Shown here one piece after another: positions 1,013 through 46,492 of a stretch of DNA of 64,000 nucleotides. Each line of letters begins with the position of its first letter. Positions within the stretch are counted from its first letter, which is position 1. This DNA is from the human T2T-CHM13v2.0 reference genome, Homo sapiens. The DNA lies in NCBI RefSeq assembly GCF_009914755.1, contig NC_060928.1. One strand, given 5' to 3'. Position numbers and translations under genes: made by a program. The notes below the pieces were generated by a model. That model had not been told where the DNA came from. It searched no databases and saw only the letters and a program-made list of their open reading frames with translations.

Positions 1013-1135
1013 AAGCAGAAACAGCAAAACGTATTGATATAGATGTGAGGGATTGAGGGATGTGGATGTACACAATAACTCAAAGCATTCTGCCTTGCAC
1101 AACTTGGTAATGGTGATTGCATTAATAGATAAGTG

Positions 1136-1486
<351 letters not shown>

Positions 1487-1972
1487 TTATAATAGACACT
1501 GTGGTGCTTTGCACCATCTCTTCTTTGCCCAAGTGATTTCAGCACTGCTCTGGTAAGCAGTTCCATGCACATTGCTAGGGTCCCATCTTAATGAGAAGAT
1601 GTGCATTGTTGCTTTCCTACTTCAGGGCTTTCTCCTAAGGCACACGTATTCCAAACCAACACACAGATGCAGCCTGGAAGTGGGAGGAAAAGGAATCAAT
1701 GGATCATTGCTCCTACTTCCCCATCCTACTCAGATACTGTTTTCAGGCAGTTTCTACAGGGAGCCCAATATGTCCCAGTGGATCTGAGCCCCAGTTGCTG
1801 TTGCTGTTAACCAGTTTAATAATGTACCCCACTCGTGCCTCTTTTGTCTTTTTTTTTCCATTTCTGCTTTCATTCTCTGAAAGCTCTTTTTTTTGTCCTG
1901 ATTCTTAGAGTAATCTTCCAAATAAAATATATATTAATATACCCAATCTTTGTCTCAGGTTTTCATCAAAAC

Positions 1973-2796
1973 TACAGACAGTTTTCAAAAGAAGACATAC
2001 ATGCGGCCAACAATCATATGAAGAAAAAGCTCAATGTCACTTCTCATTAGAGAATGCAAATCAAAACCACAATGAGATACCATCTCACAGCAGTCAGAAT
2101 GGCTATTACTAAAAAGTCAAAAAATAACAGATGCTGGCAAAGTTGTGGAGAAAAAGGAATGCTTATACACTGTTGGTGGGAGTGTAAATTAGTTCAACTA
2201 TTGTGAAAGACAGTATGGCAATTCCTCAAAAACCCAAAGACAGAACTACCATTCAGTTGAGCAATCCTATTACTGGATATATACCCAAAGGGATATAAAT
2301 AATTATATTATAAAGACACACGCACATATTTATTTGTTCATTGCAGCACTATACACAATAGTAAAGACAGGATTGCCAACCCAAATGCCCATCAATGATA
2401 GACTGGACAAAGAAAATGTGGTACATATATACCATAGAACCCTATGCAGCCATGAAAAAGAATGAGGTCAAGACCTTTGCAGGGACATGGATGAAGCTGG
2501 AGGCCATTATGCTAAGAAAACTAATGCAGGAACAGAAAGCTAAATACCCCATGTTCTCACTTATGAGTGGGAGCTAAATGATGAGAACACATGGACGCAT
2601 AGAGGGAAACAACACACACTGGGGCCTATTGGAGAGTGGAGGGTGGGAGGAAGGAGAGGATTAGGAAAAATAACTATTGGGTACTAGGCTGAATACTTGG
2701 GTGATGAAATAATCTGTACAACAAACTCCCGTGACATAAACCTATGTAACAAACCTGCACATATATCCCTGAATTTAAAATAAAAGTTAAAAAAAG
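1973..2796 (+). mobile_element. L1PA 3' fragment (ORF2 C-terminus + 3'UTR)
   Basis: ORF2 peptides FSKEDIHAANNHMKK and MIDWTKKMWYIYT..., G-rich 3'UTR, aataaaagttaaaaaaa end. Confidence 0.93.
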
Positions 2797-2852
2797 GAAA
2801 ATATATGGAATATTTAGGACATGCAAAGTTTTAGGAATCTTTGGGAAATTTA

Positions 2853-3192
<340 letters not shown>

Positions 3193-4242
3193 AGAAAGTT
3201 AGAAATTAATTAGTGTCACCTCAAAAGTAGCTGTCTTTTCCATTTCTTGATCCATTCTGCTCTTCATCTTCCAGAAACTGCTTTCTGCCACTCATTTACA
3301 TTTGTCATTGTTTCTGTGCTTTTTCTCCTATTTTACTAGTTTTTTAAAAAAGTCAGAGATCTTAAGAAAGTTCACTGAATAGAAAGTTTGTCTAAAATAC
3401 CTAAACTTTCTCTTCCTCAAATGGATCATTTGTGACTATATAAAGCTCTAGCTTTTTTTTCAGCGACTCTTCTGTCCTTCATGAGTTTCTGGCCAGAGGG
3501 CCATATCTAATTTGCTTCTCAATATAATTGCTCTGAATAATGGTATGTTCTCTACCTTCTCTGCAACTTTATTTCATCAAATAAAAAAAAACAGTATCCT
3601 TTAAATAGAATGTGAAAAAACTTAAAGATATTTTGGCTCAGCCTGGTCTTGTCAGTCTAAGAGAGATTTACTCTTGTAACAAAGAGGTAGGTTTTCTTTT
3701 CTTTTTTTTTTTTCTAAATACCTCTAGGAACCCATTCTGTCCATGTGTCATATCTTATTTGATGCACGATGTCAGAAATGTGGTTGAAATCTGGAAAAAA
3801 TCCTGGATCTTTGGCACTTTTTCAAAGGCTAAAAGAAATCTTTGCAGAACTGAAAGCTGTCATTTGTGTCCAGGGAGGAGTAAAATTGTTCTGCTTAAAT
3901 CCAAATTGTTGTTTCAAAGAGAACAAAAATGAAAAGTTTGGAAGATAAAATGATGACTAATCCACTCTTGTAAGTTAGAGTACTCTTATTCTTTTTGATT
4001 TAGTAGATGCTGTGATCATGTTTCTTTATACTAATCCTCCTGCAAGCATAATGATCCCCATCTCCTGGGATATCATTTTCCCCCTATGCTTTGTTTCTCC
4101 CTGTTTTATACCTACCTCTATTGTATTTTTCAGAAATATTTTTTTCTGTGAATTGTATCTTCATCATAAAGTTTAGAGGACTTATTAATTTCACTTAAGT
4201 TTAAAGAGAATCATTAGAAATTGGACAGTTAAAAGATATTAA

Positions 4243-4564
<322 letters not shown>

Positions 4565-4881
4565 TAATTTTAAATAAAGAATTTAATTTTTTATTAAATT
4601 CTGTAGAAGAAACTAGAATAATCTGATGTTGAGGTTGAAAAATATCAGAAATATCTTCATTATTATCCTAAGTTTATATATAAGAAAATGAAGGTTCATG
4701 CAATTTAAATAATATGTCCAAAGCCATATATGAATAATCAGCATTACTAGAACTAAAACACACTCTTTCTGTCATTTAATATTGTTTAATTTAATTGAAT
4801 CAATTTAATATGATCAGTAAACCCTGAGATTAAGAGGAGGCACAAGTGACATTTTCTTGCTGATCCTGTTTATGTTATGAC

Positions 4882-5182
4882 TTTTTTTTTTTCTTTTTTT
4901 AAAGATGGACTCTCACTCTGTTGCCCAGGCTGGAGTGCAATGGCGCTATTTTGGTTCACTGCAACCTCCGCCGCCTGGTTCAAGTGATTTTTGTGCCTCA
5001 GCCTCCTGAGTAGCTGGGATCACAGGTGTGTGCCACCACACCCGGCTAATTTTTGTATTTTCAGTAGAGACAGGGTTTTACCACGTTGACCAGGCTGGTC
5101 TCAAACTCCTGGCCTCATGTGATCTGCCTGCATAGGCCTCCCAAAGCACAGGGATTACAGGCGTGAATCACCGTGCCTGGCC
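4882..5182 (-). mobile_element. Alu (AluS-like)
   Basis: Poly-T, reverse Alu ending ccgtgcctggcc. Confidence 0.95.
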
Positions 5183-5206
5183 TCTATCTAGTTTTTAAAA
5201 GGTTTT

Positions 5207-5510
5207 AACTGAGTGTGGTAGCTCATGCCTGTAATCCCAGCACTTTGGGAGTCTGAGGTGGGAGAATCCCTCGAGTTCAGGAGTTTGAGACCAGCCTGGA
5301 CAACAGGTGAAAACCCATTTCTACAAAAAATACAAAAATTTGCTGGGCATGGTGGTGGGAGCTGGTAGTCCCTGCTACTCTAAAGGCTGAGGTGGGAGGA
5401 TAGCTTGAGCCCAGCAGGTGAAGGTTGCAGGGCGCCATGATGGCTCCACTGCACTCCAGACTGGGCAACAGAGGGAAACTTTGTCTCAATAACAATAATA
5501 ATAATAATAA
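5207..5510 (+). mobile_element. Alu (AluJ-like) with (AAT)n tail
   Basis: Alu dimer followed by aataacaataataataataataa. Confidence 0.95.
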
Positions 5511-6608
5511 CTTTTACATATTTTGCATTTTATAGATGAGATTGACACATGGAGAGGGTAACTTGCCCAACCATGTGGTTAATCAATGGCAGAGCCAGAA
5601 CTAGCACTGACTTATATGTGCATTTGCTTATTCATGCAATAAATATTTTGAGTGCATTATCTGTTGCAGGCATTATGCTAGGTAATGGGGATTCAATTAA
5701 ATAATAAACAAAATAGAGTCTCCAATGGCATAAAGTTCATAGTAGGCCATGACTGGGCTGCTACATATCAATGATGATGGAAACAAGAGAATTCAAGAGC
5801 GTTTCATCGTGGAGTAGCAAGAATTCCTAGCTGATAGAACCTTCGGTGCTGGTGTGGCCTTTTCCCCCTAAAAAGCATAGACGGTGGTAGTGTTATGTTT
5901 TTGTTTTTTCAGTTTTTTATTTTTATTTTTTGGCTCCTCTTACCCCATTAGTACTTTAAAGGACTGACTAAATCAACATACTTTGCACACACCAACCAAT
6001 ATGAAGAACTTAGGAAGAAATAAGCAGTCACATACAGTCCTTCATAAATTCATGTGATGCATGCCCTTTACTTATTTGCAGGTTCTATGGTAAAGCAAAA
6101 TGAAAGAAACCTTTGCTATTGTCTGAGTTGCCTCTTTTGCCAGTTTTCGAACCCAGGCCAAATTTTGTGGGCCAGCCTAGCTTAGAGCATATTGTTCAGT
6201 AAAAACTACTAAAAAGTTCAGTAGACTGTAGAATCTAACTCTAGACGGAGTGAGACTAGAGGCAGATGTTGTGTCATTTGTTAGTTGGGCAATAAGTTCA
6301 TACAAAGAAGGTTCCACATTTAACTTCATTTACATACTTTATAAATCACACTGTTGATTTGCAGTTATGCACTCTGACTCTTACTTCTCACAGCTTTTAT
6401 CTAATTACCAGAGAAGTGGGTGGGTGGTTAATTTAAAATTTAATGACAAGAATTAGGCTTCTTTTAACCTAGTACCTTAAAAGAATTGTTAAAACAAATG
6501 ATGTTCTTTAGAGAGAATAGAGGACCAATCAACATTCAACTCTTTTTTTTAGCTGAGTCAGTGTGGGAGACAGACATTAGACAAATAGTCCAATAAAAGC
6601 TATAAGTT

Positions 6609-6638
6609 TATATATATATTATATATATATATATATAA
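6609..6638. repeat. (TA)n microsatellite
   Basis: Interrupted tatatata run. Confidence 0.9.
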
Positions 6639-7899
6639 ATGTATATAGATAAAATTGTGATAATCAAGGATACTTTAAAAAGAAGAGAATACTTAGAAAC
6701 ACATCATGGAAGAACTTAGGTGTAGATTCGTCTCGATTTGGGGTAGGGGATGAGTCAGGGAAGGCTCTCGTGAGAAAATGGCTTTTAAGCTCAGATATTA
6801 GAAAAGTAAATAAAAGGGAAGAAATTAATCAAAAAAGTTGTGAGAAGTGAATGCTTCATTGCAGAAGACAGAAGTACATCTTGGAAGACAGAACTTCTGA
6901 TATTTTTCCCCATTCTTCATGTTTTCCATTTGAAGGACTGGGCCAGGAACACTTTATCATTCAAATTATGTTACATATTTCTTAGTGCCAATTGAAACCA
7001 AATTAAGATCTTGATTGTGGTGACAGCTACATGACTAAGCATTTGTCCCAACTCAGATCCACATGCCAAAAAGAATGACTTTTACTATATATAAATTTCA
7101 AATAGAAATAAAACCAAAATAAAAGAAAATACAAATTAAGTTTACACCATTGACTACTGTTGTCCAGTTGCTCTTTCACCTTCATACTAAAAAGCAACAA
7201 GTAAAATATGAGTGTGCACAGGATTATGTGTGTTTCATCAAAACTCTAATCTCTCCCTTGCTATTAAAATGTTTGCTCTTGTCTGATTTTTTCCATTTCA
7301 AACACAAGAGGGACTCTTTAATATAGCTTTAATATGTAGACAGGCTAGGAAATCCCCAAAAGAAAAATGTGTTTTGTAACATACTGATTTGACAAATGGA
7401 GTGTCATTCTAAGGCTTCATTCTGGCACTACCTGACAGGCACCTTTGTTATCTAGAAGAAATATGGCTACACTTGCTGGTAGAACACATAATGCAGGTAC
7501 CAGAAAGTCATCACTCCAGTAATGACAAGACACCAGAGATCATTATTTCCTAGCCTGAAAACCTTGTGTACCATTGTTAAAATGGAGGCCTGTCATTTTA
7601 CTGTATGTCATCTGATGACATTATCTCTGATATTTATGACAAAGGAAGCACCTTGTGACTTTTACCACTCAAATTAAATAGCATTTTTTAATCTTTCACT
7701 GGATTGAAGAAATCTGACTTAGGAAAGGAAAGCCCATTTAGATACATTCGTTGACTTGCGTTGAAATGTGAATTCCTCTCTCCTCCAAAAAGATATCCTC
7801 CAGAATCTCCAAGGAGGAGAAAGAGGGATTCTGTTTTGATAGTTAATGGTCGTGAGGCTTACAAGTTCCCAGAAACTGACAATACTGCTTTGTTTATAG

Positions 7900-8080
7900 G
7901 CATTAGCACCTTAATTTTCACAGCAATAATTGAAACCGTACTCTCTGAGGCAGAGGTTATTGGTGTTTCAATTTTGCAAAAGAGGAAATTAAGGTCCAGA
8001 GAGGTCAAGAAACTTGCTCCAGGTGGCAGAGCCAGGAAGTGTTCTGAGCGTTGTGCATGTCACGGAGGCTCGCATGCTTT
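7900..8080 (-). mobile_element. MIR fragment
   Basis: attttgcaaaagaggaaattaaggtccagagaggtcaagaaacttgc matches the MIR core in reverse. Confidence 0.65.
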
Positions 8081-8428
8081 ATCTTCTAGGGTCAGATGTG
8101 CTGCTGGAGAGGGATAATGCTGCATAGCTCACCCAAGCAGCTGCCAGTGCTGATGCTTAGATGTGTGCTGATTTCTTCCTGTCAGATGCTTGAATCTTGT
8201 GTCAATTCATATTAGGACCTTAGTATTTCCTGCTTCTCAGCATTAACATTTCCTGTAATAAGCTTCTTGTGATTCCCTTTAAGGACCTCCAACCGAAGAG
8301 TCCCCCAGAGTTTTGCTTAGTTAACAATCCTGCTTTCAGTGGCAGTATATTAACTATGAAACAATTGCAAAGGAATAGTATAAGAGTTTCCCTCTGCCTT
8401 ATTAATAAATAAAAAGGTAATACAAATC

Positions 8429-8751
8429 TTTTTTCTTTTCTTTTTTTTTTTTTTTTGAGAAAGGGTGTTGCTTTGTTGCCTAGGCTGGAGTAGGTGCAGT
8501 CACAGCTTACTGCAGCCTTGAACCCTTGGGCTCAAATGATCCTCCCACCTCAGCTTCCTGGGTAGCTGAGACTGCAGGCTCAGGCCACCAGGCCCAGATA
8601 ATTAAAAAAAAAAAAAAAAAAAAAACTTTGGTAGAGATAGGGGGTCTCACTATGTTGCCCAGTCTGGTCTCTAACTCCTGGGTTCACATGACCCTCTTGC
8701 CTCTGCCTCTGAAAGTGCTAGGATTACAGGCATGAGACACCACATCCAGCC
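8429..8751 (-). mobile_element. Alu (AluJ-like)
   Basis: Poly-T, diverged reverse Alu with an A-run in the middle linker; near-TSD acaaat(t)ctt. Confidence 0.93.
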
Positions 8752-8823
8752 ACAAATTCTTAATAGCAATTTCAAATGTTAATAACAAACCCATGGTGAT
8801 CTTTCACATTGATATAGACTCTT

Positions 8824-9078
8824 TTTATTTTTTTGAGACAGAGTCTCACTCTGTTGCCCAGGCTGGAGTGCAGTGGCGTGATCTCGGCTCACTGTAACCT
8901 CTGCAGTAGCTGGGATTACAGGTATGTGCCACCACGCCCGGCTAATTTTTGTATTTTTAGTAGAGACAGGGTTTTGCCATGTTGGCCAGGCTGGTCTCGA
9001 ACTCCTGACCTCAGGTGATCCACCTGCCTTGGCCTCCCAAAGTGCTGTGATTATAGGCATAAGCCACTGTGCCCGGCC
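8824..9078 (-). mobile_element. Alu (AluS-like) with an internal deletion in the right monomer
   Basis: aacctctgc|agtagctggg junction lacks about 38 bp of consensus; near-TSD tgatatagactcttt / tgataaagactcttt. Confidence 0.93.
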
Positions 9079-10964
9079 TGATAAAGACTCTTTATGATTC
9101 TTCTGTTTCTTAAAACATGTAATCTTTTTAATTTTTAATCTTAGCCATGCTCAAAACTTTTACTAATATGACTTGCTATAGTAAACATACAGTACTGTTG
9201 CTTATCTTTCTCCAACAAATCAAAGTACATAGTAAGTAAAGAGGCCTGAAAGTACTTTTTAAAACTTTAAAAAGTAATCATATATGAGGAAAACAAAGTT
9301 GAGAAGGTTGTATCTTGGTTTTACTAATGGAGAAACTGAGGTGAAAATGGGTTGAAGTTTGTTGCAGCTTAGCCACTGCAAAGTTTAACTCAATCAGGGT
9401 GAAGTTATTTTAAGACACATAGCTTTAACTACCATGGAATGAGGGTATCTGCTATAAAGGTATTCTGATATGGAAACCTGAAGTGAACTCCCTTTCTTTT
9501 AGAGAGTGGACAGGTTATCATTATGGATCAGAGCCAAAAGAGATGACACGTTGGTGACATTTGTTACCTTTATATAGTTCTGGCAACAACAACAAAAATA
9601 CTACTATTTGAAGAAGATGGTTGAAAATGCAGATGGACTTCTTTAATTATCTTCCTTTCCTTTAGTGTTGTCCTTCAAAATAAGGTAGATAAATTTCATT
9701 CATTCTATAATCCACAAATATTCACTGTAACTGTCTTTCAGCTGCTGAAATACCAACAGAGAATCATATCAACCTTGTAAAAAGCTATTGGACCAAGCTC
9801 TTCTGCCACGAAAAACAAAGAAGATGATTAATTTTATTTGCTTTACTGTTTGCATTTCCCTAAGACACAATGAACTGATTAAAATACTTTTGTACTCATT
9901 CATTAGGCTTTTTTGTATATTAAGGTGCATTATTTTGACATACTTACCACATAATTATATTTGTGTAATGATTTCACATTCATAGTCATGCGTGTGTTAT
10001 TTTCTTCTCACAACAAAGCATACCAGAGGAAAAGTTATAACTCCCATTTTTACAGAGAACAAAAATAAGGCTTTGGAGTTTGACCATGGCTATGCAGCTA
10101 CTCTGAGTGTGTGTGTATGTTTATATGTGGGAGTGGGCTATAGAATTAGACTTCATGTATATTGGTTTCTACTAGCACTTTCTATATTCCCCGTGCTATC
10201 TTTACAAAATGAACTAAGTTTTGAAGCACCACAAGCTTCTACTCAGCCCTGCTGGCATTTTCAGGACATCTGGATGACAAGGTTTTCTTTGTTTTGCTTT
10301 GAATTGTGGGTACCGCAAAGAACCAGTAGCATTTCTGGCACACGTTCCAATTTTCTGATTCAAAATCTCTCTGTCTATTTGATGTTGCTACTACGAAATT
10401 CATATAGAAAAAGACGTTAAAAGGTTAAGTGGTTTTGGTGTGTGTAAGAACAAGGGTGAACACCCTACTGCTTCTCCTTTTTTTCCTGGATTCCTCTCAC
10501 ATTTACCTACTTCATTTATGGGGTAGAGAGGGATGGGTGGAGTTGTAAAAGAAACATAATAAAAGCAGAGGGAAATAAGAGCAGCACCTCTGAGGAAATT
10601 TCCTGCATTCAAAAATTATAGGCTGGAATAAAATGTCTGGATTAGAATTTTGTTTCTCCTCATTCTACTCTGCCTGAAGCCACATGGAGTAAAGCTGAGG
10701 TTCCTGAGAAGTGAAAGTTCTTGACAATGAAGCCGAAATAATGTATCTCAAGCTGGAGAGCAGACCCTCAATCTTCAAATGTATTATTTATTCAAAGAAT
10801 AATTATTGGGTACCAACAATATATCAAGTATCATTCTCGGTGTTTGGTAAATACTTGTGAACAAAAGAAAGATTTTTACCCTCTGAAGCTTACATGCTAG
10901 CAGGGAGAAACAGACAATAAGCAATAAATGTAATACGGAAGAATGTTCCCTTGTGGGTTAGAAG

Positions 10965-11175
10965 GTGATGAGTGCAGCAAAACAAAGTTATAAAAGCATT
11001 ACTCCTAGAGCTAGACTGTCCGAATTCAAACCTTAGCCCCACCACTTCCCAACTGTGTGACTTGGGTAAGTTATTTACCCTCTCTGTGCCTCATTTTCTT
11101 ATGACCTATAAAATAGACAAGGCAATAGTGCTGGAATATCTGGCTTATAGTAAGAACTCTGTAACTGCTTATTCA
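10965..11175 (+). mobile_element. MIR
   Basis: ctgtgtgacttgggtaagttatttaccctctctgtgcctcattttc MIR core. Confidence 0.8.
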
Positions 11176-11374
11176 AAAATAATTACTGTGGAAAAATTTA
11201 AAAGATAAGCAGTATGGATGTGAGTGACTCTATAGAGGGTGTAGGTATCATTTGAGGGGAAAATACGTGAGCAAAGACTTAAGGAGGAGAAGGAGTTAGC
11301 CAGACAAATATATTGGGGATGAGCAGTCCCAACAGAGGACATGGCCCTTGTGAATGTGGGAAGATGAGAGTCTA

Positions 11375-11800
<426 letters not shown>

Positions 11801-21555: not shown

Positions 21556-22053
21556 GTAAGTTACTCGCTCTCCTACAAAACCCGTCCTAGGCGGCCGCGG
21601 AAGATTCGGGAGGGACAGCAGGTATTCGCCGGGACACAGGCTCACCTTCCTGAGCCCAGGCCACTGGGACCAAGCTGATACTCAGAAACAGCCGGGCGGG
21701 TTGGGTGGAGATGCATCTATATGGCGTGCGCACAAGCACCCCTCTCCTGGGCATGAGGAATTGCGATTTCTCAGGTGTATGTTACCTAGAGGCTGGTGCC
21801 CAGACGGGTACCTTGTTTTCAGTTTGCTCTAGCCTCAAAGACGAGTCCCCAGCCATGACAGGAGAGAACAAAAAACTCATTTCTTCTCACTCAATTTGTT
21901 TACCTTCTGCTTATGAACTAGCCTGGCATTTTTCATTAGGCATCAAAGGCAGCCCTTCTCCCTATCCATAACTGAAGTTATTTTTTGAAAAGAAGAATCA
22001 AATCCCAAATACTTCCCTCTTCCATCCGCTACCATAAACCTCAAATTAATATT

Positions 22054-22162
22054 GTATATGTATATGTATATATGTATATAAGTCTATGTATACAATGTAT
22101 ACACATAGGTAGATAGATAGATAGATAGATAGATACACAGATAGATAGACAGACAGATAGAT
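22054..22162. repeat. Compound (TA/TG)n and (GATA)n/(GACA)n microsatellite
   Basis: gtatatgtatatgtatatatg... then agatagatagatagatagatagat...gacagacagatagata. Confidence 0.9.
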
Positions 22163-22704
22163 AACTAGGGGACACCAGACAGACATTCCTGCTTGGAAGA
22201 AGATTGTGCTCTAGAAAACTGGACGCGTTTAGAGAGGGAGACATGATAAACATTGAAATTACTAACTCCAGAGTTGGATTTAACAATGTTTAGTATCTTG
22301 AGACCATGACTACACCGTATTAGGAGAGTGGCCAGCCTTTGGTCCCCAAGAACAGTTAGGGGAAAGTTCCTTATTTTAGAAGAAACGCAGAGGTTAAATT
22401 TGGTAGGGGTGCAGATTTTGTAGGACTTTTTATAAACAAAGTTTTAAATTTTCCCTCTGAGTTTTTTCTTTCAGCACGCTCTCTTTTTTCCTTTCTCATC
22501 TCCTCTTCCCTTCCACCCCATCTATGTTTCCAGACCATCGCAGCCACTCCTCTGGTTTCTCTTCACTGCCTCTAGGCAGCTGGGGGCAGGGACGGTTTGG
22601 GGCTGTGAGTAGGAGTGGGGAGATCTCTGTGGGGCTTTTGCTCAGTAGGGCCAGATCGCTCTTCCAGCGCGGGTTGGTCCACCAGGCAGAGCCCCAGCCA
22701 GGGC

Positions 22705-22836
22705 CTGTCAGGTACCCAGGGAGACCGGAAATGTAGCCAGGAGACAGCAGCGCTCACAGTCACCTGGTTTCAGTGTCAGCCTGGTTGCTCCTAGATGTTC
22801 CTAACTTGCTCCATCTCAGACCAACGACTCCACGGG
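22705..22836 (+). repeat. Long inverted repeat, left arm
   Basis: Reverse complement of 23454-23586; 124/133 aligned columns identical by hand alignment. Confidence 0.97.
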
Positions 22837-22859
22837 CCATTGGGCTCCTTCTTACACAG

Positions 22860-22944
22860 GCTCCAGAGGAGCGTGGACACCACCGGCGGTCTGAAGATTT
22901 GGCAGCCAGCAGTCTCCAGAGGGGGGTCGGAGGCGCGCAAGTGG
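22860..22944 (+). other. Candidate 85-nt cryptic/poison (or alternative first) exon of FGF5
   Basis: Acceptor ctccttcttacacag|G, donor TGG|GTAAGG; in-frame TGA at 22892-22894 when joined to exon 1. Confidence 0.45.
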
Positions 22945-23453
22945 GTAAGGCGGTAGGCTGGCTAGCCTCCTCCGGTGGGTTAAGGGGGCCTAATGCGGAA
23001 GACCTGATGGTTCATGCTGAGAGAAAAGCAGGTCTATGCCCGCCCCTCTGCGCCTGTCTAGTCTATCTGATCGCGCTGATTCAGCAGCCTGCGGCGCACG
23101 TGGTGAGGGCGCCTGGAGCGCCCAGCTGGAGAGAGGGCCCTCCGCACACGCACCAGCGAGTCCCAGGGCCTCCCTCACACTCCCGAGAGGAATCTATTTC
23201 CATATTTTAGAGTTTATTTCACTCATCGAATAACTGCTCATTTGGGGGATAAAGGGCAAGATCTGTTGGGGTGAAATGGAATTTTCTGAGATTTGAGGAA
23301 TAATCAGTAACATCTATTTATTTCCATTCGTCCTTCTCATTTTGTCTCAACGGTCTTTTGACTCCATCAGCCATCACAGCTTATTCCCACTTCCGGCAAC
23401 CTTTCCTTCTCTCTTACAAGAAAACTTTCTTTCTTCTGTTCTTCTTGTAACGA

Positions 23454-23586
23454 CCCGTGGAGTCATTGGTCTGAGATGGAGCAAGTTAGGAACATCTAGG
23501 AGCAACCAGGCTGACACTGAAAGACAGGTGACTGTGCGCGCTGCTGTCTCCTGGCTATGTTTCCACTCTCCCTGGGTACATGACAG
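23454..23586 (-). repeat. Long inverted repeat, right arm
   Basis: Perfect 57-bp core 23466-23522 pairs with 22768-22824; the ORF track shows the same peptide SAWLLLDVPNLLHLRP on opposite strands. Confidence 0.97.
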
Positions 23587-26500
23587 AGCACCAACAGAGG
23601 ATAACTTCCGTGAGCTCAAGGGCGGACCCCAAACTAGCAGGCAGCAAGCAGCAGGTTGGAGCCCAGGGAGCTCAGAGAATGCTTCTGGGGAGGGTTTAGG
23701 TGTGCTAGAGATCTCAGAAAGCAAGGCTCATTCCCAGGATATTCACCATCTTCTCTACGAAGACACTATATGAGACGAAGGTAGTTTTACAGCTTAGGCC
23801 TTGCTAGAGGGGGTGTTGTAGAAAAGCAAAGGGGGGAAAATAAGAGCAGATCAAAAAGAGTGCACCCAGATAAACAAGACATTGACCACTACCCAGTATG
23901 TAACATGTACATTTTCTTTTAAAATCCATGTTGAAAGATATCTACAAGAGAACAGGGATGTTTCCTAAAACAGTGCCGACAAAAAGCTTAATTTAAACTT
24001 TTTCCTAATTTATTCTTGTTTACAATAACCTTTCAGAGTTTAGTTTCTGTGTCTTTCACATGACTTGCTTTCATTCATGCCATAAATCATGTACCCAATA
24101 TAAGATACCTATCTCACTAAGCATGATATTTTGGTTACTTTTGTGTTGTTTGTCTTCCATAGAGTTTTTTTTTTTTTCCCCAGAAGAAAGCATAGCAAAT
24201 ATTCAAATCATAGTAATTTTCTGCTTTGTGATATCTGGAGTGTCTAATACTACTTCATAAAATTTTTACTACCTTTGATCAATGCAGAATTTGCATGTAA
24301 TTTGGGAATTTAACATGGATCTCTGCCATTACCTAGCTGTAAAAGAGAAACAGAAACTTGCTAATTACAATTGGTCATTTACCTCTTTGAAGGCAGTAGT
24401 TGATGTTTCCTGACATTCGTGTAAACTAAGGTGTTGGCCATGGCCTTTCTTAGAGTATGTGAGGAAATGTGTTTAAATCTCCTAAGAGAGGCTGAGAGGG
24501 CTGGATCAAGGGCCACAGAGGATACCTCAGTTTGATCTCATCTTCTATTTCTACTGTATGTGAGTTAGTGATGATAGAAAACCTATTCTTTTTGTTACAA
24601 CCCTGATACTTCAGAAAAGTCAAAGCTTTGCCATGAAACTGCATTCTAACAAGTTATTTTAAACCTAATAATATTCTGTAGTATTTGTCTGATAGAACAG
24701 ATAATCATATGTGTTTCGCAAACTATTATTTGACAGTAAACTTTTTTTTTTTTTTTTGCAAATTGCAAATGTTTTCTGGTTTCACCATGAGAAGTGCACC
24801 ATGGCCATGGACTTTCAAACATAATTTGTTTAGTTTACATGGACCAATTAATATACTCTTAGCTTCTCTTACACAATAATTATCCCAAGTTTTGAACACA
24901 GAAAATGAAATCAAGCTCATTGTATATAAATCCTTATTATGAGGAAATACTGTGGAAAAATGAAGAAATATGAACAAGGCAAGATAGATGACCCAACTAT
25001 TGCATGGAAACAAATGGTTTGGTTTAATTTATACGCCTTCAAGTTTAATGTCAATACAGTGCTTCTGTTGACTTACCTTGGGCCATTGAAGAATAGGCAA
25101 TCAAGTAGTTGTCAGTTTAGGGAAGAAAAGTTTAAGGCTTTGTCAAAGCGTTTACATAAAATATGAAAATTCCAAGCACATATTTTGGTTAATAGAATCG
25201 TCGATGTTACTGCTTTTTAAAAAAATCTAAATTCACTACCAATTTTGGGGTCATGTGGAGTCATTAGACAGTCCCCCAAGCCTAGATAAATCAGAATCTA
25301 TATCTACTATGCAGAAAAATCAAGTGGAAAATTTCTGTTGCTAATTTAATCAGTGAAGACTGCTAAACTGAATATTTCAAGATTCAGATTTCATAACTTG
25401 GCACAGCATATCTGTTACTTTGTGGATGCAAGTAGAGAAACTTCAGTTTTAAAATATTTTTGTCTGGGGATTTTCAGATGGGTTGTTGAAAGCTTCTGAA
25501 TACATGGAATATCTGTGCTTTTCTATATTTTATTCATTAACAAAAGAGAGAAAAAGGAAAAATGTGTATAGTTGTATCAACCACTATCAGTAGAGCCCTA
25601 TTATATTAAGAAATCTGCAGAGGACTAAGTCAAAAATCTAGAAATATGTTTTTTTTTACGGAAGTAAGCTTACATCATAATGCATAAGTGGAATAGACTG
25701 TGTGTATAAGCTGAGAGACACCAAGACATTCTTGCCTTCTTCAGCCTAGGTGTCAATGCTGAAATTCCACAAAGAGAGAATAATTCCTTCTGTTAAGCAT
25801 TCTCCTCTTCTTTTGACCCTCTTAAATGGGAACACCTTAAGAAAAATAACACACTGTCTGTAGCACTTTAATGTGAATTTATTTACACTGAGCCACCCGT
25901 CCACCCCGTGCCTTCTCAAGCAGGAGAAGGCCACAGTAGCAGGAGAGTACTAAGACACCTGTCCATACTTGTGTATGCATGGGGTGTCCTGACAAGAGAA
26001 AAGAGAGGTAGTGAGAGGATCAAAGAAGGCAGTCAAATTTAGCAAACAGTCATTGACTATATACCATCTACAAGACAAGCTTGGCCTTCCACAGTTTGGC
26101 TTAGAAATACTGCCTTGGCATCCATAAGGAGAATTGTAAGTTTCCATCAAATTTAATATGCGTGACTCCCGATGATAAAGGTCAGAAAATTACTGAAATT
26201 AAAAAAAATCAATGTCAGAGAAATGTTTTCAGAAATTTATATATTTGTGATTTAAGGCACATGGGTTTAAAAAATTACGTAGAATTCCTGAATGAGTTAC
26301 TGAGATTTGTCATAGCAAAATCAATAGGCCTGTGATGTTTTGGGGAGGAGGGCAGGAAACTGAACTGTGAGACTCATTGAATCTGCTCCAGAAAACAAGG
26401 CATTGTGAAATCACTGCTGACATTACTTTGGAAATTATGATCATAACAGTGTTCTTAATATTAGGTCATAATTACGGTAAGATTTAGAAGATCAATACCA

Positions 26501-36348: not shown

Positions 36349-36640
36349 TTTTTTTTTTTGAGATAGAGTTTTGCTCTTGTTGCCCAGGCTAGAGTGCAAT
36401 GGTAGGATCCCAGCTCACTGCAACCTCCGCCCCCTGGGTTCAAGCGATTCTCCTGCCTCAGTCTCCTGAGTAGTTGAGATTACAGGCGCGCACAACCACA
36501 CCTGGCTGATTTTGTATTTTTAGTACAGACAGGGTTTCACCATGTTGGTCAGGCTGGTCTCGAACTCCTGACCTCAAAAGATCCACCCGCCTTGGCCTCC
36601 CAAAGTGCTGTGATTACAGATGTGAGCCACCGTACCCAGC
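36349..36640 (-). mobile_element. Alu (AluS-like), intron 2
   Basis: Poly-T + reverse dimer; TSD aaagttctt. Confidence 0.95.
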
Positions 36641-38531
36641 AGAAAGTTCTTATTTCTCTTAATAGTAGTGTGTTTCCTCTCCTTGTAATAATCTGGATAT
36701 TCAAGAAAAAATAGTTCGATTTGTTTAAAGTTCTTTTTTTTTTGTCAATTAGGAGTATATACTAAAGTACAAAAAACGCTGATTTTAAACATTTCATTTT
36801 AATTTTGCAATTATGGTTTGTTGAATGTAACCTGTTATTATTCTTGCCAGATCAAGGAGAAATTAAAGAGATTTTAATGTAATTTAAGTCAACAAAAACA
36901 TGGGCAGGACCATGTTAATACTGTTTTCCACTGTAAAAGTGGCACCTAGCACAGTGCCTGGCATGTGATATCTGTGGAATAAATTAGTGAAAAATGAATA
37001 TGAAACTTTTTAAACAAATATTTAAACAATTGCTTTCATTGTAGTGGCTGATGGTGGTAAGGCAATTAGATGAAGGAGTCTTGATTTCAGCAACTTATCT
37101 GAAATTTGATTCATCTCTCTACTTCATACTCTTTAACTATAGAAAAAGTCTGTTAATTTCAGGGTTTTTTTTCTAGAAAAATAATGGAGTTCTATCATTT
37201 TAAAAGTGTATATTTTATTAGAAGACTTATAATTTAAAAAAAAGATTTAAAAAATAAAAATCAGCCTGGAAAATTTATTGTCCAAAATTTTCTAATGGTA
37301 AATGTATGTATTTTAGTACCTCTAGCTAAGACCTATGACTCTTTGCTATAAAGATGGTCCATGCACAACATTATGTATAGAGATATACTGCTTAGGGTCA
37401 CCATCTTGTCTGAGCCAGACCGGGAATACTAACAGGAATAGTCAATCCTTCAAGATGAGTAAATTCACTGAAATGTTTGTTTCAAATGATTCTGTGTTCC
37501 ATCACAGCTGGAATAATTTTTCAGACAAAACATTAAATTAAAAGTTAATTAAGAAAGCCAAAACAGTCTAACTGCGTTTACTCCCGTATTAATGTAGAAT
37601 GTAGGATTTGGATGGCTGAGGGGCTGTGTGTACTGTGTAGATCCTTAGAACTCTACACACTTCTACCCTGGGTAACAGTTAGGTGACCTTTGAAAAATCT
37701 GAAGTCCAAATAGCCATCTCCATAAAGGGCTCCTCTTAAGAAAGAACTTTAGAATATGAATCTCGAGGAAAAGAGGAGGAAAAGAGAAAGATTTTAGATG
37801 AAACAATTGTAGGGGGTGGGGCAGGTGGGTTTCACTCATATGAAAGATCCTAAAATGGAAATGATATAGATTCCTGTTTTAAAAAAAGAAATGCTGTGGT
37901 GTGTGTCTGCACATGCACCTGTGCATGAGTGTGTGTGTGCCTGTCATCTACATTAGTTAAAAATGACATGTTCTTTCTTTATTTTCTTGGGCACTGTTGG
38001 GGGAAAATATTAAATAATGTAGTACATTGTAAAAACCTAACTCTGTCAAAATTGAGTAAAGCAATCACCGCTGTTTTTGTGAAACAGAGCTGGAAGTCAG
38101 ATCAAGGCATAATGTATTACACATTTTCAAAAATGTCATTCAACTGCATTTTAAGAAAAAAAAAACCCGAGACAAGATAAATATACCTGATACTCTTTTT
38201 AATGAAATGTTTCACACCTTTGTAAAATTCTTGTGATCTGTTTATAGAGCCAGAAACATTCTAGATGTCTATAGCTTTTATTTTGAAATAAAATGTTGGG
38301 ATTATCTAATTAAATGGGAAAACCATTTTAAGAGCTAAGCAGCTGTAGACAAATCTACAATGAATTTGTAAGCAAGTCTTTCTAATAAAAAATAGGAATA
38401 GTCAATGTGTGGTCTTCGAAAGTGATGTCAGCATAGCAGTCCGGGCCTAAATGCAGGCTGGCAAGGTGTATCGTAGACAGGGTGAAAGGGATGCCATACA
38501 TAGGTGGTGATTGTTTATAATACCTGCCTTC

Positions 38532-38932
<401 letters not shown>

Positions 38933-39579
38933 CTACATATATGGCTTCATAACCTGCCAATGGAACTTTGTTGATTGAACTACACTTAAATATAAGTAAC
39001 TCCAGTAAACTATTGTACATAAAGTGAATGTGCTGTTGGAAATGCTCTGATATTGGTTGGCTTCTACTACTGTCAGTAACCTGCACTGCTCAAAAACTCC
39101 ATGTGGACTTCAACAGTGGATCTATGTAGATTGCCTTGCAATATTCAGATTTTTAGATTTCTGTGTTATGATCAGTATTTCAAAGAAAAGTTTGGCATTA
39201 TTAGAAAAAACAAGGAAAAAAAGGCCATTTTATTCCCGTATAAAACTTCTTGGTTTGATATAGAAGTATGTAGCTTTTAGTGTTTTTATATATAGGGGAC
39301 AAAATATTTGGTATTCTCAAACACGGGAATTCTGTGTAAATAGTACTCCTTGAAATTATGAAACCTGGTAGTCTTAACTAGTACAGGAATTCTTAATTCT
39401 TTGGGGGTTATGGGCTCTTTCAAGTTTGATGAAAGCTACAGAATCCTCCTTTGGATTCTCATAACAGCCCTATTGTTGTAAGTGTTATGGATAAGGAGGC
39501 TAAGGCTAAGAGCTTAATTGGCAGAACTGGTTTTTGATTGCATGTCTGACTCCAAGTTCACACTCTTCCCCCATTCTCC

Positions 39580-40030
39580 CACATATTCCTTCAAATTTTA
39601 CAACATGGCAAACTAAGCTCTTTCAGAGCTGGTGCTGACCTACATTGTCTGGCTCATCTCCTTACTTCCCACATGCATCCTAGGTAGAGGTCACGCTGAA
39701 CTACTTACAGGTATTTGAAAGTGTCATGTTGACCTTTCAACACCCTGTTCCTTCTCCCTGAAAATCCTTTCTTATTTTGCCTTCCTCTCTAATGCTAGTT
39801 AGAGAACATTCCTAGTTGTACTTGAAGACTCAGCTCAAATGTCACCTTTTATAGGAAGACTTTTCTGCCCTCTTCTTGGCCACCTCCACCCTCTTAGATG
39901 CCCTTCCTCTATGCTGTCATTGTACCCTCTGCATACCGCTGTCATAATTCCATTTATCAAGCTGCACCATGACGGATGTCTACTTGTCTGCTTTTCCACT
40001 ATTCTGTAAGCATTTCAAGGGCAGATATTT
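39580..40030 (+). mobile_element. L2 fragment
   Basis: aagactcagctcaaatgtcacc...ggaagacttttctg and ctgtaagcatttcaagggcag L2 3' motifs. Confidence 0.6.
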
Positions 40031-40703
40031 TGTGTGTGTGTAAGATCTGGCCAAAGTGTAGTTAGTAACTCGAGTGACTTTTTTCTTCTTGGAGTTAGAT
40101 ATACTTTCCTGTAATGCCTGAGTAAAGATACGTTATTTTTTTCTAAAGAACTCTAACACGTGCAATATTAATGGGGGCCATATGCTACTTCTCTCTCAGC
40201 AGCCTCAATCACACTGATAACATTGAAAAAATGCAAGCTTGTTTCAAAGGAATAATTTTGACCCCATTTCTGTGAACAGGAATTTATATTTTACCAGGCA
40301 ATCATTTCTTAGTAATATAGTTCCATTTATTTTCTTAGTGAGTTAGGAGGAAAAACAGTATGTAAAAAGATTTGTAACTATACATTTCAAAGTATTTAAA
40401 CAATAGTAACAGGGTTTAAATGTATCAAGAGTTCTGGTTACTTTTATAGTCATCGATATTATGTCACCAAGTAAGTAGGGAACAGAAATGTGTTACAAAG
40501 ATAAATGAAGTAGAAATATAGAAAGAAAAATAGTAATTTTAAAGCAACTTTAAAATAAGCAAACATGTCTTTATAAAAAGGAATTGAGTAGGAGGAACAG
40601 AGATCAACAAAATTATTGTTTTTTTTTCTACAATACCTTATGTTTTATTACATGCTGAAAAGATCGCCACAACTTAAATTTCCTCTTTTTTTCTCCTCCT
40701 TAG

Positions 40704-41051
40704 GCCAAGTTCACAGATGACTGCAAGTTCAGGGAGCGTTTTCAAGAAAATAGCTATAATACCTATGCCTCAGCAATACATAGAACTGAAAAAACAGGGC
40801 GGGAGTGGTATGTGGCCCTGAATAAAAGAGGAAAAGCCAAACGAGGGTGCAGCCCCCGGGTTAAACCCCAGCATATCTCTACCCATTTTCTGCCAAGATT
40901 CAAGCAGTCGGAGCAGCCAGAACTTTCTTTCACGGTTACTGTTCCTGAAAAGAAAAAGCCACCTAGCCCTATCAAGCCAAAGATTCCCCTTTCTGCACCT
41001 CGGAAAAATACCAACTCAGTGAAATACAGACTCAAGTTTCGCTTTGGATAA
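40704..41051 (+). CDS. FGF5: FGF5 coding exon 3
   Basis: Strong polypyrimidine acceptor ctcctccttag|GCC; [23 protein letters not shown]...[14 protein letters not shown]...KYRLKFRFG*; 355+104+348 = 807 nt. Confidence 0.99.

Positions 41052-46492
<5,441 letters not shown>

What the first reader, a model, noticed from the sequence alone, without database searches (positions are those of the whole stretch)
22705..23586. Long inverted repeat in FGF5 intron 1, not a recognisable transposon (132/133-bp arms, 617-bp loop)
Seen: 22705-22836 and 23454-23586 are reverse complements with 8 substitutions and 1 indel (93%), and a perfect 57-bp core (22768-22824 / 23466-23522). Two of the differences (tg opposite tg) are tandem G-U wobbles in the sense pre-mRNA. 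The arms resemble no Alu/L1/LTR/MER that I recognise, show no obvious TSD, and lie 1.15 kb past the exon 1 donor around a CpG-rich loop. Inference: a very stable pre-mRNA duplex (ADAR substrate, splicing or elongation regulator) kept similar by selection or arm-to-arm gene conversion. I know of no description of it.
Basis: partly seen in the sequence, partly recalled or inferred. Interest (0 to 1): 0.85.

Follow-up and report, generated by a model that had tools for sequence, protein, structure and literature searches.

The report
Single-copy inverted duplication in FGF5 intron
A 132-base stretch inside the first intron of the human FGF5 gene was copied once, backwards, about 600 bases downstream; the pair is real and is not a transposon, but nothing found here shows that it is more than a fairly young neutral duplication that happens to be able to fold into a long RNA hairpin.

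Summary
Arms 22705-22836 and 23454-23586 are reverse complements with 8 substitutions and 1 indel, a 57-bp perfect core and a 617-nt spacer.

It is not a recognisable mobile element.
- The arm finds only itself and its partner in the T2T genome.
- 4 of 4 masked control stretches of similar length gave 1,298-2,895 candidates, with matches down to 79% identity.
- There is no target-site duplication and no homology beyond the arms.

My best reading is a one-off local inverted duplication, probably made by a replication template switch. Per-arm divergence is 3.2% (95% CI 1.3-6.0%), which suggests a primate-age origin if the arms evolved neutrally.

The RNA stem is very stable in prediction: -259 kcal/mol for the arms, z = -16 for the whole element. 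It is equally stable on the antisense strand.

The "tandem G-U wobbles" are two independent decays of a single CpG. Nothing therefore points to selection or gene conversion, apart from a marginal clustering of the differences.

New context:
- The left arm lies wholly inside a RefSeq alternative exon.
- The spacer and right arm carry a RefSeq enhancer, at the position of the mouse Fgf5 intronic "PE" amplifier.

Cross-species comparison and editing data could not be reached.

The parts
22705..22836 (+). Left arm of the inverted repeat (132 nt). It lies entirely inside the RefSeq alternative exon 22644-22944.
   Evidence: Exon coordinates come from the hub's gene table. GC 56%, 4 CpG.
23454..23586 (-). 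Right arm (133 nt), the reverse complement of the left arm. It is intronic in every annotated transcript and begins 509 nt downstream of the alternative exon's donor.
   Evidence: GC 54%, 3 CpG. 126 of its 133 nt fall inside the RefSeq enhancer 23009-23579 (hub table).
22768..22824 (.). Perfect 57-bp core of the left arm (partner 23466-23522).
   Evidence: longest perfect run 57. A run of at least 57 is expected in 5% (9 differences) to 14% (7 events) of random placements.
22837..23453 (.). 617-nt spacer (loop). The 5' half is GC- and CpG-rich, the 3' half AT-rich. It holds the alternative exon's 3' end and its GTAAG donor (22945), and most of the RefSeq enhancer 23009-23579.
   Evidence: hub table. 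There is no inverted homology between its two halves (score 10 versus shuffle mean 9.4).
22644..22944 (+). RefSeq alternative FGF5 exon that contains the left arm. The donor GTAAG follows at 22945. The AG of the nearest canonical acceptor is at 22644-45.
   Evidence: Hub table; sequence; reading frames.

Best explanation
This is a single-locus inverted duplication, not a mobile element. One ~132-bp piece of FGF5 intron 1 was copied once in reverse orientation ~0.6 kb away. The original is probably the left copy, whose base composition matches its GC-rich surroundings. The most likely mechanism is a replication template switch, in which the nascent strand briefly copies the opposite strand and then returns. 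Such an event leaves no target-site duplication and no other copies.

If the arms then evolved neutrally, their 6.3% divergence dates the event to primate evolution, roughly the ape or Old World monkey stem.

The consequence is physical rather than selected. Any transcript spanning both arms can fold into a ~130-bp, nearly perfect stem with a 617-nt loop. That holds for the FGF5 pre-mRNA, and for a transcript starting at the alternative exon. The duplex is nuclear and intron-dependent. It is long enough to be a promiscuous ADAR substrate, and it would bury most of the alternative exon 22644-22944 in double-stranded RNA, which should disfavour use of that exon.

Shown: the repeat, its uniqueness in the genome, the lack of a TSD, the predicted stability, and the overlap with the exon and enhancer annotations.

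Inferred: the template-switch origin, the age, neutrality, editing, and the effect on the exon.
For: - Repeat anatomy.
- Uniqueness: the arm query gave 2 candidates, itself and its partner. The 1.1-kb query at E<=10 gave only the locus itself. In contrast, 4 of 4 masked control stretches of 125-190 nt gave 1,298-2,895 first-look candidates, with scored matches down to 79% identity.
- No TSD for the whole element or for either arm beyond chance.
- Homology stops at the arm ends.
- No Rfam family in or near the arms at E<=1.
- Half of the substitutions (4 of 8) are CpG transitions, as expected for neutral decay.
- Per-arm divergence is 3.2% (CI 1.3-6.0%).
- There is no strand preference in pairing.
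- Template switching is documented as a one-step source of new inverted repeats and hairpins in human and ape genomes (PMC5453318, passages; 10.1101/2023.04.19.537475 and PMC7954356, search listing and abstract start only).
- Stable non-repetitive intramolecular dsRNAs are a known class. About 497,000 are predicted in the human genome, and 4,597 are edited on both arms. The edited ones have a median length of 144 bp and a median loop of 509 nt (PMC11838218, passages), close to this one.
Against: - The documented short template switches are tens of bp long (PMC5453318). A 132-bp copy placed 617 bp away is larger than those.
- The differences between the arms are unevenly spread: 8 of 9 lie in the outer 63 of 132 columns (P = 0.014 post hoc; 6 of 7 if adjacent changes are merged, P = 0.049). 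This could reflect partial homogenisation or constraint on the inner 57-bp core.
- The repeat sits in annotated functional DNA (an alternative exon and a RefSeq enhancer), not in anonymous intron.
- Long near-perfect inverted duplicates are reported to be depleted even from pre-mRNAs (PMC7006430, passages), so persistence here is not fully expected. That depletion is strongest above 300 bp and 96% identity, and this repeat does not reach either.
- The age and the neutrality rest on no outgroup sequence.
Confidence: 0.62

Rival explanations
1. One reading: the duplex is a functional pre-mRNA element. It would act as an ADAR target or as a regulator of splicing or elongation of FGF5. The arms would be held complementary by selection, or by arm-to-arm gene conversion or template-switch homogenisation.
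For: - Very stable predicted stem.
- The left arm is the body of an annotated alternative exon, and that exon's donor lies in the loop (hub table). This geometry resembles the conserved intronic pairings that are reported to suppress intervening exons and obstruct splice sites (PMC8052449, abstract and passages).
- The perfect 57-bp core and the clustering of differences in the outer half (P 0.014-0.05) would fit a recent homogenisation tract.
- Its size and loop match the edited class of non-repetitive dsRNAs (PMC11838218).
Against: - There is no strand asymmetry: sense -258.6 versus antisense -261.1 kcal/mol, and G.U-compatible transitions split 2 to 2 between the strands.
- The wobble pair is explained by CpG decay.
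- 93% identity needs no constraint if the duplication is of primate age.
- The clustering statistic is post hoc and marginal.
- No editing, duplex or conservation data could be consulted. FGF5 does not occur in the main text of the dsRNA catalogue or the PCCR paper.
Confidence: 0.17
2. A DNA-level regulatory duplication. The arm is a block of transcription-factor sites belonging to the intronic FGF5 enhancer or amplifier. The inverted copy adds a second block on the far side of that element. On this view the RNA hairpin is a by-product.
For: - RefSeq lists an enhancer at 23009-23579, which covers the 3' part of the spacer and 126 of 133 nt of the right arm (hub table).
- The repeat spans +1665 to +2546 from the NM_004464 start (21040).
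- Mouse Fgf5 has a poised enhancer or 'amplifier' (PE) in intron 1, less than 2 kb from the TSS. It initiates transcription strongly and accumulates paused Pol II (bioRxiv 10.1101/2020.05.06.080564, passages).
- The equal stability of both strands fits a DNA-level rather than an RNA-level role.
Against: - Orthology between the human spacer and mouse PE rests on position alone. No mouse sequence was available.
- No motif analysis was done.
- Nothing shows that the arms themselves carry enhancer activity.
Confidence: 0.1
3. The arms are the terminal inverted repeats of a DNA transposon or MITE, with the spacer as its body.
For: Only the shape: two inverted ends around ~0.6 kb.
Against: - No other copy in 3.1 Gb at a sensitivity that recovers thousands of copies for 4 of 4 control repeats.
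- No TSD.
- The stretch is not among the masked stretches of 100 bp or more in the hub's list.
- An element old enough to have lost all relatives could not keep 93% identical ends without homogenisation.
Confidence: 0.03

Closest known systems
Template-switch mutations (four-point model; Loytynoja and Goldman 2017, PMC5453318) and the de novo hairpins or miRNAs they create (10.1101/2023.04.19.537475)
   Same: A nearby sequence is copied in reverse complement in one step. This creates an inverted repeat able to form a hairpin, with no target-site duplication and no dispersed copies.
   Different: Published events are tens of bp long and have short spacers. This copy is 132 bp long and sits 617 bp away. 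The ancestral state needed to call the event was not available.
Non-repetitive intramolecular dsRNAs of the human 'dsRNAome' (dsRNAscan, PMC11838218)
   Same: It is intronic, not built from annotated repeats, ~130 bp long, more than 90% paired, with a loop of ~0.6 kb. These values are close to the medians of the 4,597 edited non-repetitive dsRNAs (144 bp, 87.5% paired, loop 509 nt).
   Different: At -259 kcal/mol it is more stable than the edited median of -184.8.
Inverted Alu pairs (IR-Alus), the common ADAR substrates in human introns
   Same: Two inverted copies within a few kb in an intron that form long imperfect dsRNA. The window holds many such pairs at 70-93%.
   Different: The arms are not Alu or any other dispersed repeat. 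They are more alike (93%, with a 57-bp perfect run) than most of the 23 other pairs shown, whose complementarity ranges from 70% to 93%.
Pairs of conserved complementary regions (PCCRs) that loop out or mask exons (Kalmykova et al. 2021, PMC8052449)
   Same: A long-range pre-mRNA pairing positioned so that an alternative exon and its donor are masked or looped.
   Different: PCCRs are defined by conservation and exclude annotated exons. Here conservation is untested, one arm is exonic, and the stem is far longer than typical PCCRs.
Mouse Fgf5 intronic PE 'amplifier' (10.1101/2020.05.06.080564)
   Same: Same gene, same intron and a similar distance from the TSS. The human spacer carries a RefSeq enhancer and an alternative exon, features that suggest a promoter-like element.
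   Different: The passages I read mention no inverted repeat in the mouse element. Sequence orthology was not tested.

Membership tests
DNA transposon / MITE | Multiple dispersed copies in the genome | tested here: not met
   Searches found only the two arms. Controls gave 1,298-2,895 candidates each (4 of 4).
DNA transposon / MITE | Target-site duplication flanking the terminal inverted repeats | tested here: not met
   the best match is 3 nt, and 435 of 500 random position pairs do at least as well.
DNA transposon / MITE | Match to a curated repeat family (Dfam/Repbase) | not testable with these tools
   No repeat library is on hand. The hub's list of masked stretches of 100 bp or more does not include the arms.
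Template-switch (inverted duplication) mutation | Reverse-complement copy of a nearby sequence, with sharp ends and no TSD | tested here: met
Template-switch (inverted duplication) mutation | An ancestral or outgroup sequence lacking the copy, with the event explaining the whole difference | not testable with these tools
   No other primate or mammalian genome is held.
ADAR-edited non-repetitive dsRNA | Predicted intramolecular duplex of at least 25 bp that does not overlap repeats | tested here: met
   (132 bp, -258.6 kcal/mol); for non-repetitiveness.
ADAR-edited non-repetitive dsRNA | A-to-I sites on both arms | not testable with these tools
   No editing database is available. The search FGF5 + A-to-I + dsRNA gave 4 papers, none on this locus by title or abstract.
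Conserved long-range pre-mRNA pairing (PCCR) | Both complementary regions evolutionarily conserved, with compensatory changes | not testable with these tools
   No orthologous sequences were available. Within the human sequence, the G.U-compatible changes split 2 sense to 2 antisense, which gives no support.
Known structured RNA family (miRNA and others, Rfam 15) | Covariance-model match | tested here: not met
   there were 3 weak hits at E<=1, all on the TAGA microsatellite at 22050-22130 and none in the repeat.

The most novel reading that the evidence does not exclude
The repeat is a primate-specific RNA switch built around the human counterpart of the Fgf5 intronic 'amplifier'. The stem buries the alternative exon 22644-22944 and loops out its donor and the enhancer-derived transcript. 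In this way it sets how much FGF5 pre-mRNA is diverted into a truncated or poison isoform, or how long polymerase dwells there. On this reading the inner 57-bp perfect core is kept identical by recurrent template-switch or gene-conversion events between the arms.
Probability: 0.1. Interest if true: 0.6.

Novelty: new member of a known kind. Interest (0 to 1): 0.3.

Why it matters
FGF5 controls the length of the hair-growth phase, is a standard marker of primed pluripotency, and lies at a blood-pressure GWAS locus (all three recalled, not from a call). A lineage-specific structure in its first intron, at the place where the mouse gene keeps a strong regulatory element, would be a concrete candidate for primate-specific tuning of FGF5.

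As it stands, the finding is a clean example of a non-transposon inverted duplication that creates a long intronic dsRNA. That class is already catalogued by the hundred thousand. Its value lies mainly in being a well-defined, easily testable case: one arm is exonic, the other is intronic, and the spacer holds an enhancer.

Tried and rejected
- Transposon TIRs: rejected on copy number and TSD.
- A larger, decayed duplication: rejected. The outer flanks score 16 against a shuffle maximum of 16, and the inner flanks score 10 against a shuffle mean of 9.4.
- Known RNA family: none.
- G-U wobbles as evidence of selection on the sense RNA: rejected. They come from one CpG decaying in both arms, and the antisense strand pairs as well.
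- Literature:
  - FGF5 + inverted repeat gave 6 papers (5 listed), none on this locus by title or abstract start.
  - FGF5 + A-to-I + dsRNA gave 4, none on it.
  - FGF5 + intron 1 + hairpin gave 6, none on it.
- Warburton et al. 2004 (PMC524409), wanted for base rates of human inverted repeats, is not held.
- The oligonucleotide tables of the mouse Fgf5 enhancer preprint are images only, so the mouse PE could not be located by sequence.
- LIRBase keeps only arms longer than 400 nt (PMC8728187, passages), so it would not contain this repeat.

Full report
**1. The observation**

The inverted repeat exists as described.
- The repeat finder on 22000-24300 returns two adjoining inverted pairs: 22768-22841/23449-23522 (74 nt, 96%) and 22705-22766/23525-23586 (62 nt, 90%).
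- A gapped local alignment merges them into 22705-22836 against the reverse complement of 23454-23586.
- Column by column there are 8 substitutions and one 1-nt indel. The longest perfect run is 57 nt, 22768-22824.
- The spacer is 617 nt, and the left arm starts 1150 nt after the exon 1 donor.
- Folded as RNA, 22690-23600 has an MFE of -479.1 kcal/mol, against -322.8 +/- 9.6 for 20 shuffles (z -16.4).
- The two arms alone form a duplex of -258.6 kcal/mol.

Within the whole 64-kb window, 30 inverted pairs of at least 50 nt lie within 5 kb of each other, and 25 were shown. The other 23 shown lie in the repeat-dense stretches 1.1-11.7 kb and 36.4-43.6 kb and are 70-93% complementary. I compared these with the hub's masked list by eye and did not check each one.

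**2. Not a mobile element**

- The arm (137 nt) searched against the window's own 3.1-Gb assembly gave 2 first-look candidates, itself and its partner.
- The 1.1-kb region at E<=10 gave only the locus itself.
- The tool warns that it can miss things, so I ran positive controls with four masked stretches of the window of 125-190 nt. All 4 gave 1,298-2,895 candidates, and the scored matches reached down to 79% identity.
- A family of young or middle age would therefore have been seen.
- A family too old to be seen could not have ends that are 93% alike, unless they were homogenised.
- There is no target-site duplication around the element or around either arm beyond chance. The best match is 3 nt for the whole element, and 435 of 500 random position pairs do as well.
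- Homology ends at the arm boundaries.
- Rfam has nothing here. The only hits at E<=1 are sub-threshold mir-297/mir-4510 matches on the TAGA microsatellite at 22050-22130.
- The assembly held has 24 contigs, so the mitochondrial genome was apparently not searched. A mitochondrial origin would nevertheless be expected to leave other nuclear copies.

**3. What the differences between the arms say**

- Four of the 8 substitutions are transitions at CpG sites: 22726, 22732, 22733 and 22825. The other four are transversions.
The parsimonious ancestor is ACG. The C was lost in one arm and the G in the other, that is, one hypermutable CpG decayed twice.
- Given two such decays, the outcome that yields tandem G.U in the sense RNA is one of four equally likely combinations.
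- The other two CpG transitions give C.A mismatches in the sense RNA and G.U in the antisense RNA. Sense and antisense duplexes are equally stable (-258.6 versus -261.1 kcal/mol).
- There is therefore no sign that pairing in the FGF5 sense transcript has been favoured.
- Jukes-Cantor divergence is 6.3%, or 3.2% per arm (Poisson 95% CI 1.3-6.0%). This gives 32 Myr at 1e-9 per site per year (CI 13-60) and 63 Myr at 0.5e-9.
- From recalled figures for primate divergences, 3% is about the length of the human branch since the split from Old World monkeys. A neutral duplication of that age explains the 93% identity without selection or conversion.
- One feature does not fit perfectly. 8 of the 9 differences lie in the outer 63 of 132 columns (P 0.014; 6 of 7 merged events, P 0.049). 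A perfect run of at least 57 is expected in only 5-14% of random placements. These tests are post hoc and marginal. They leave room for a later homogenisation of the inner part, which the classical template-switch mechanism can also produce (PMC5453318, passages).

**4. Origin**

The anatomy has four relevant features: a sharp-ended reverse-complement copy of nearby sequence, no TSD, no other copies, and no extension of homology. This anatomy is what replication template switching produces.

Such events are documented as a one-step source of new inverted repeats and hairpins in human and ape genomes (PMC5453318, passages; PMC7954356 and 10.1101/2023.04.19.537475, search listing and abstract start). 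The published short events are tens of bp long, so this copy is larger and more distant.

The left arm shares the GC content of its surroundings: the arms are 54-56% GC and the left context is 57-62%. The right arm abuts an AT-rich stretch of 41% GC. This weakly suggests that the left copy is the original.

**5.

- The whole left arm lies inside a RefSeq alternative FGF5 exon, 22644-22944.
- A GTAAG donor follows at 22945, so it sits in the loop. The right arm starts 509 nt further on.
- RefSeq also lists an enhancer at 23009-23579. It covers the 3' part of the spacer and 126 of 133 nt of the right arm.
- The repeat spans +1665 to +2546 from the NM_004464 start.
- In mouse, intron 1 of Fgf5 holds a poised enhancer ('PE', called an amplifier) less than 2 kb from the TSS. 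Its deletion lowers Fgf5 about 10-fold. It shows a strong PRO-cap initiation peak and paused Pol II, without yielding mature mRNA (bioRxiv 10.1101/2020.05.06.080564, passages).
- The human spacer is thus the positional counterpart of PE. Orthology could not be tested, and those passages mention no inverted repeat.

**6. Likely working**

Whenever both arms are on one RNA, the ~130-bp stem is by far the most stable structure available. It exists only before the intron is removed, so it is nuclear.

By established ADAR biology, a duplex of this length is edited promiscuously. Its size, pairing and loop are close to the medians of the 4,597 non-repetitive human dsRNAs found edited on both arms. 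It is well below the >300 bp and >96% paired class suspected of triggering MDA5 (PMC11838218, passages).

The stem covers 132 of the 301 nt of the alternative exon, so it should hinder recognition of that exon. Conserved intronic pairings are likewise reported to suppress intervening exons and obstruct splice sites (PMC8052449, abstract and passages).

Both effects are inferred, and neither is shown. FGF5 does not occur in the main text of either catalogue paper. Their supplementary tables may list the locus, but I could not open them.

**7. Verdict**

The repeat is real, single-copy and not a transposon. The best reading is a primate-age local inverted duplication with a physically unavoidable but so far unsupported RNA-level consequence.

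It is a new member of a known and very large class. Its position inside an alternative exon and around an enhancer of a developmentally important gene makes it a reasonable small experiment rather than a surprise.

The decisive test is an alignment of the orthologous region across primates and other mammals, which these tools could not provide.

Noticed in passing
window 22640-22650: The annotated start of the alternative exon (22644) puts the AG dinucleotide (22644-45) inside the exon, whereas a canonical acceptor would start the exon at 22646. Joined to exon 1, a start at 22644 gives a TAG as the second codon of the exon (119 aa). A start at 22646 gives 167 aa with the stop inside the left arm. 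The exon could also be a transcript start rather than a spliced exon.
   Followed up: partly
window 22795-22944: An ATG at 22795, inside the perfect core of the left arm, opens a frame that runs to the end of the alternative exon. It is in frame with the FGF5 exon 3 reading frame if the exon is joined directly to exon 3 (165 aa), but not if it is joined through exon 2 (62 aa).
   Followed up: partly
window 22090-22172: A (TAGA/CAGA)n microsatellite draws sub-threshold mir-297 and mir-4510 matches (31.7 bits against a gathering score of 90). I take these as spurious.
   Followed up: yes
window 1135-11713 and 36378-43591: There are many inverted pairs of dispersed repeats, 61-198 nt long and 70-93% complementary, within 5 kb of each other, upstream of FGF5 and in intron 2 to the 3' UTR. 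These are ordinary candidates for repeat-derived dsRNA.
   Followed up: no
window 22705-22836 vs 23454-23586: The differences between the arms cluster in the outer half: 8 of 9 lie in 63 of 132 columns (P 0.014 post hoc). This is a weak hint that the inner part was homogenised later.
   Followed up: partly
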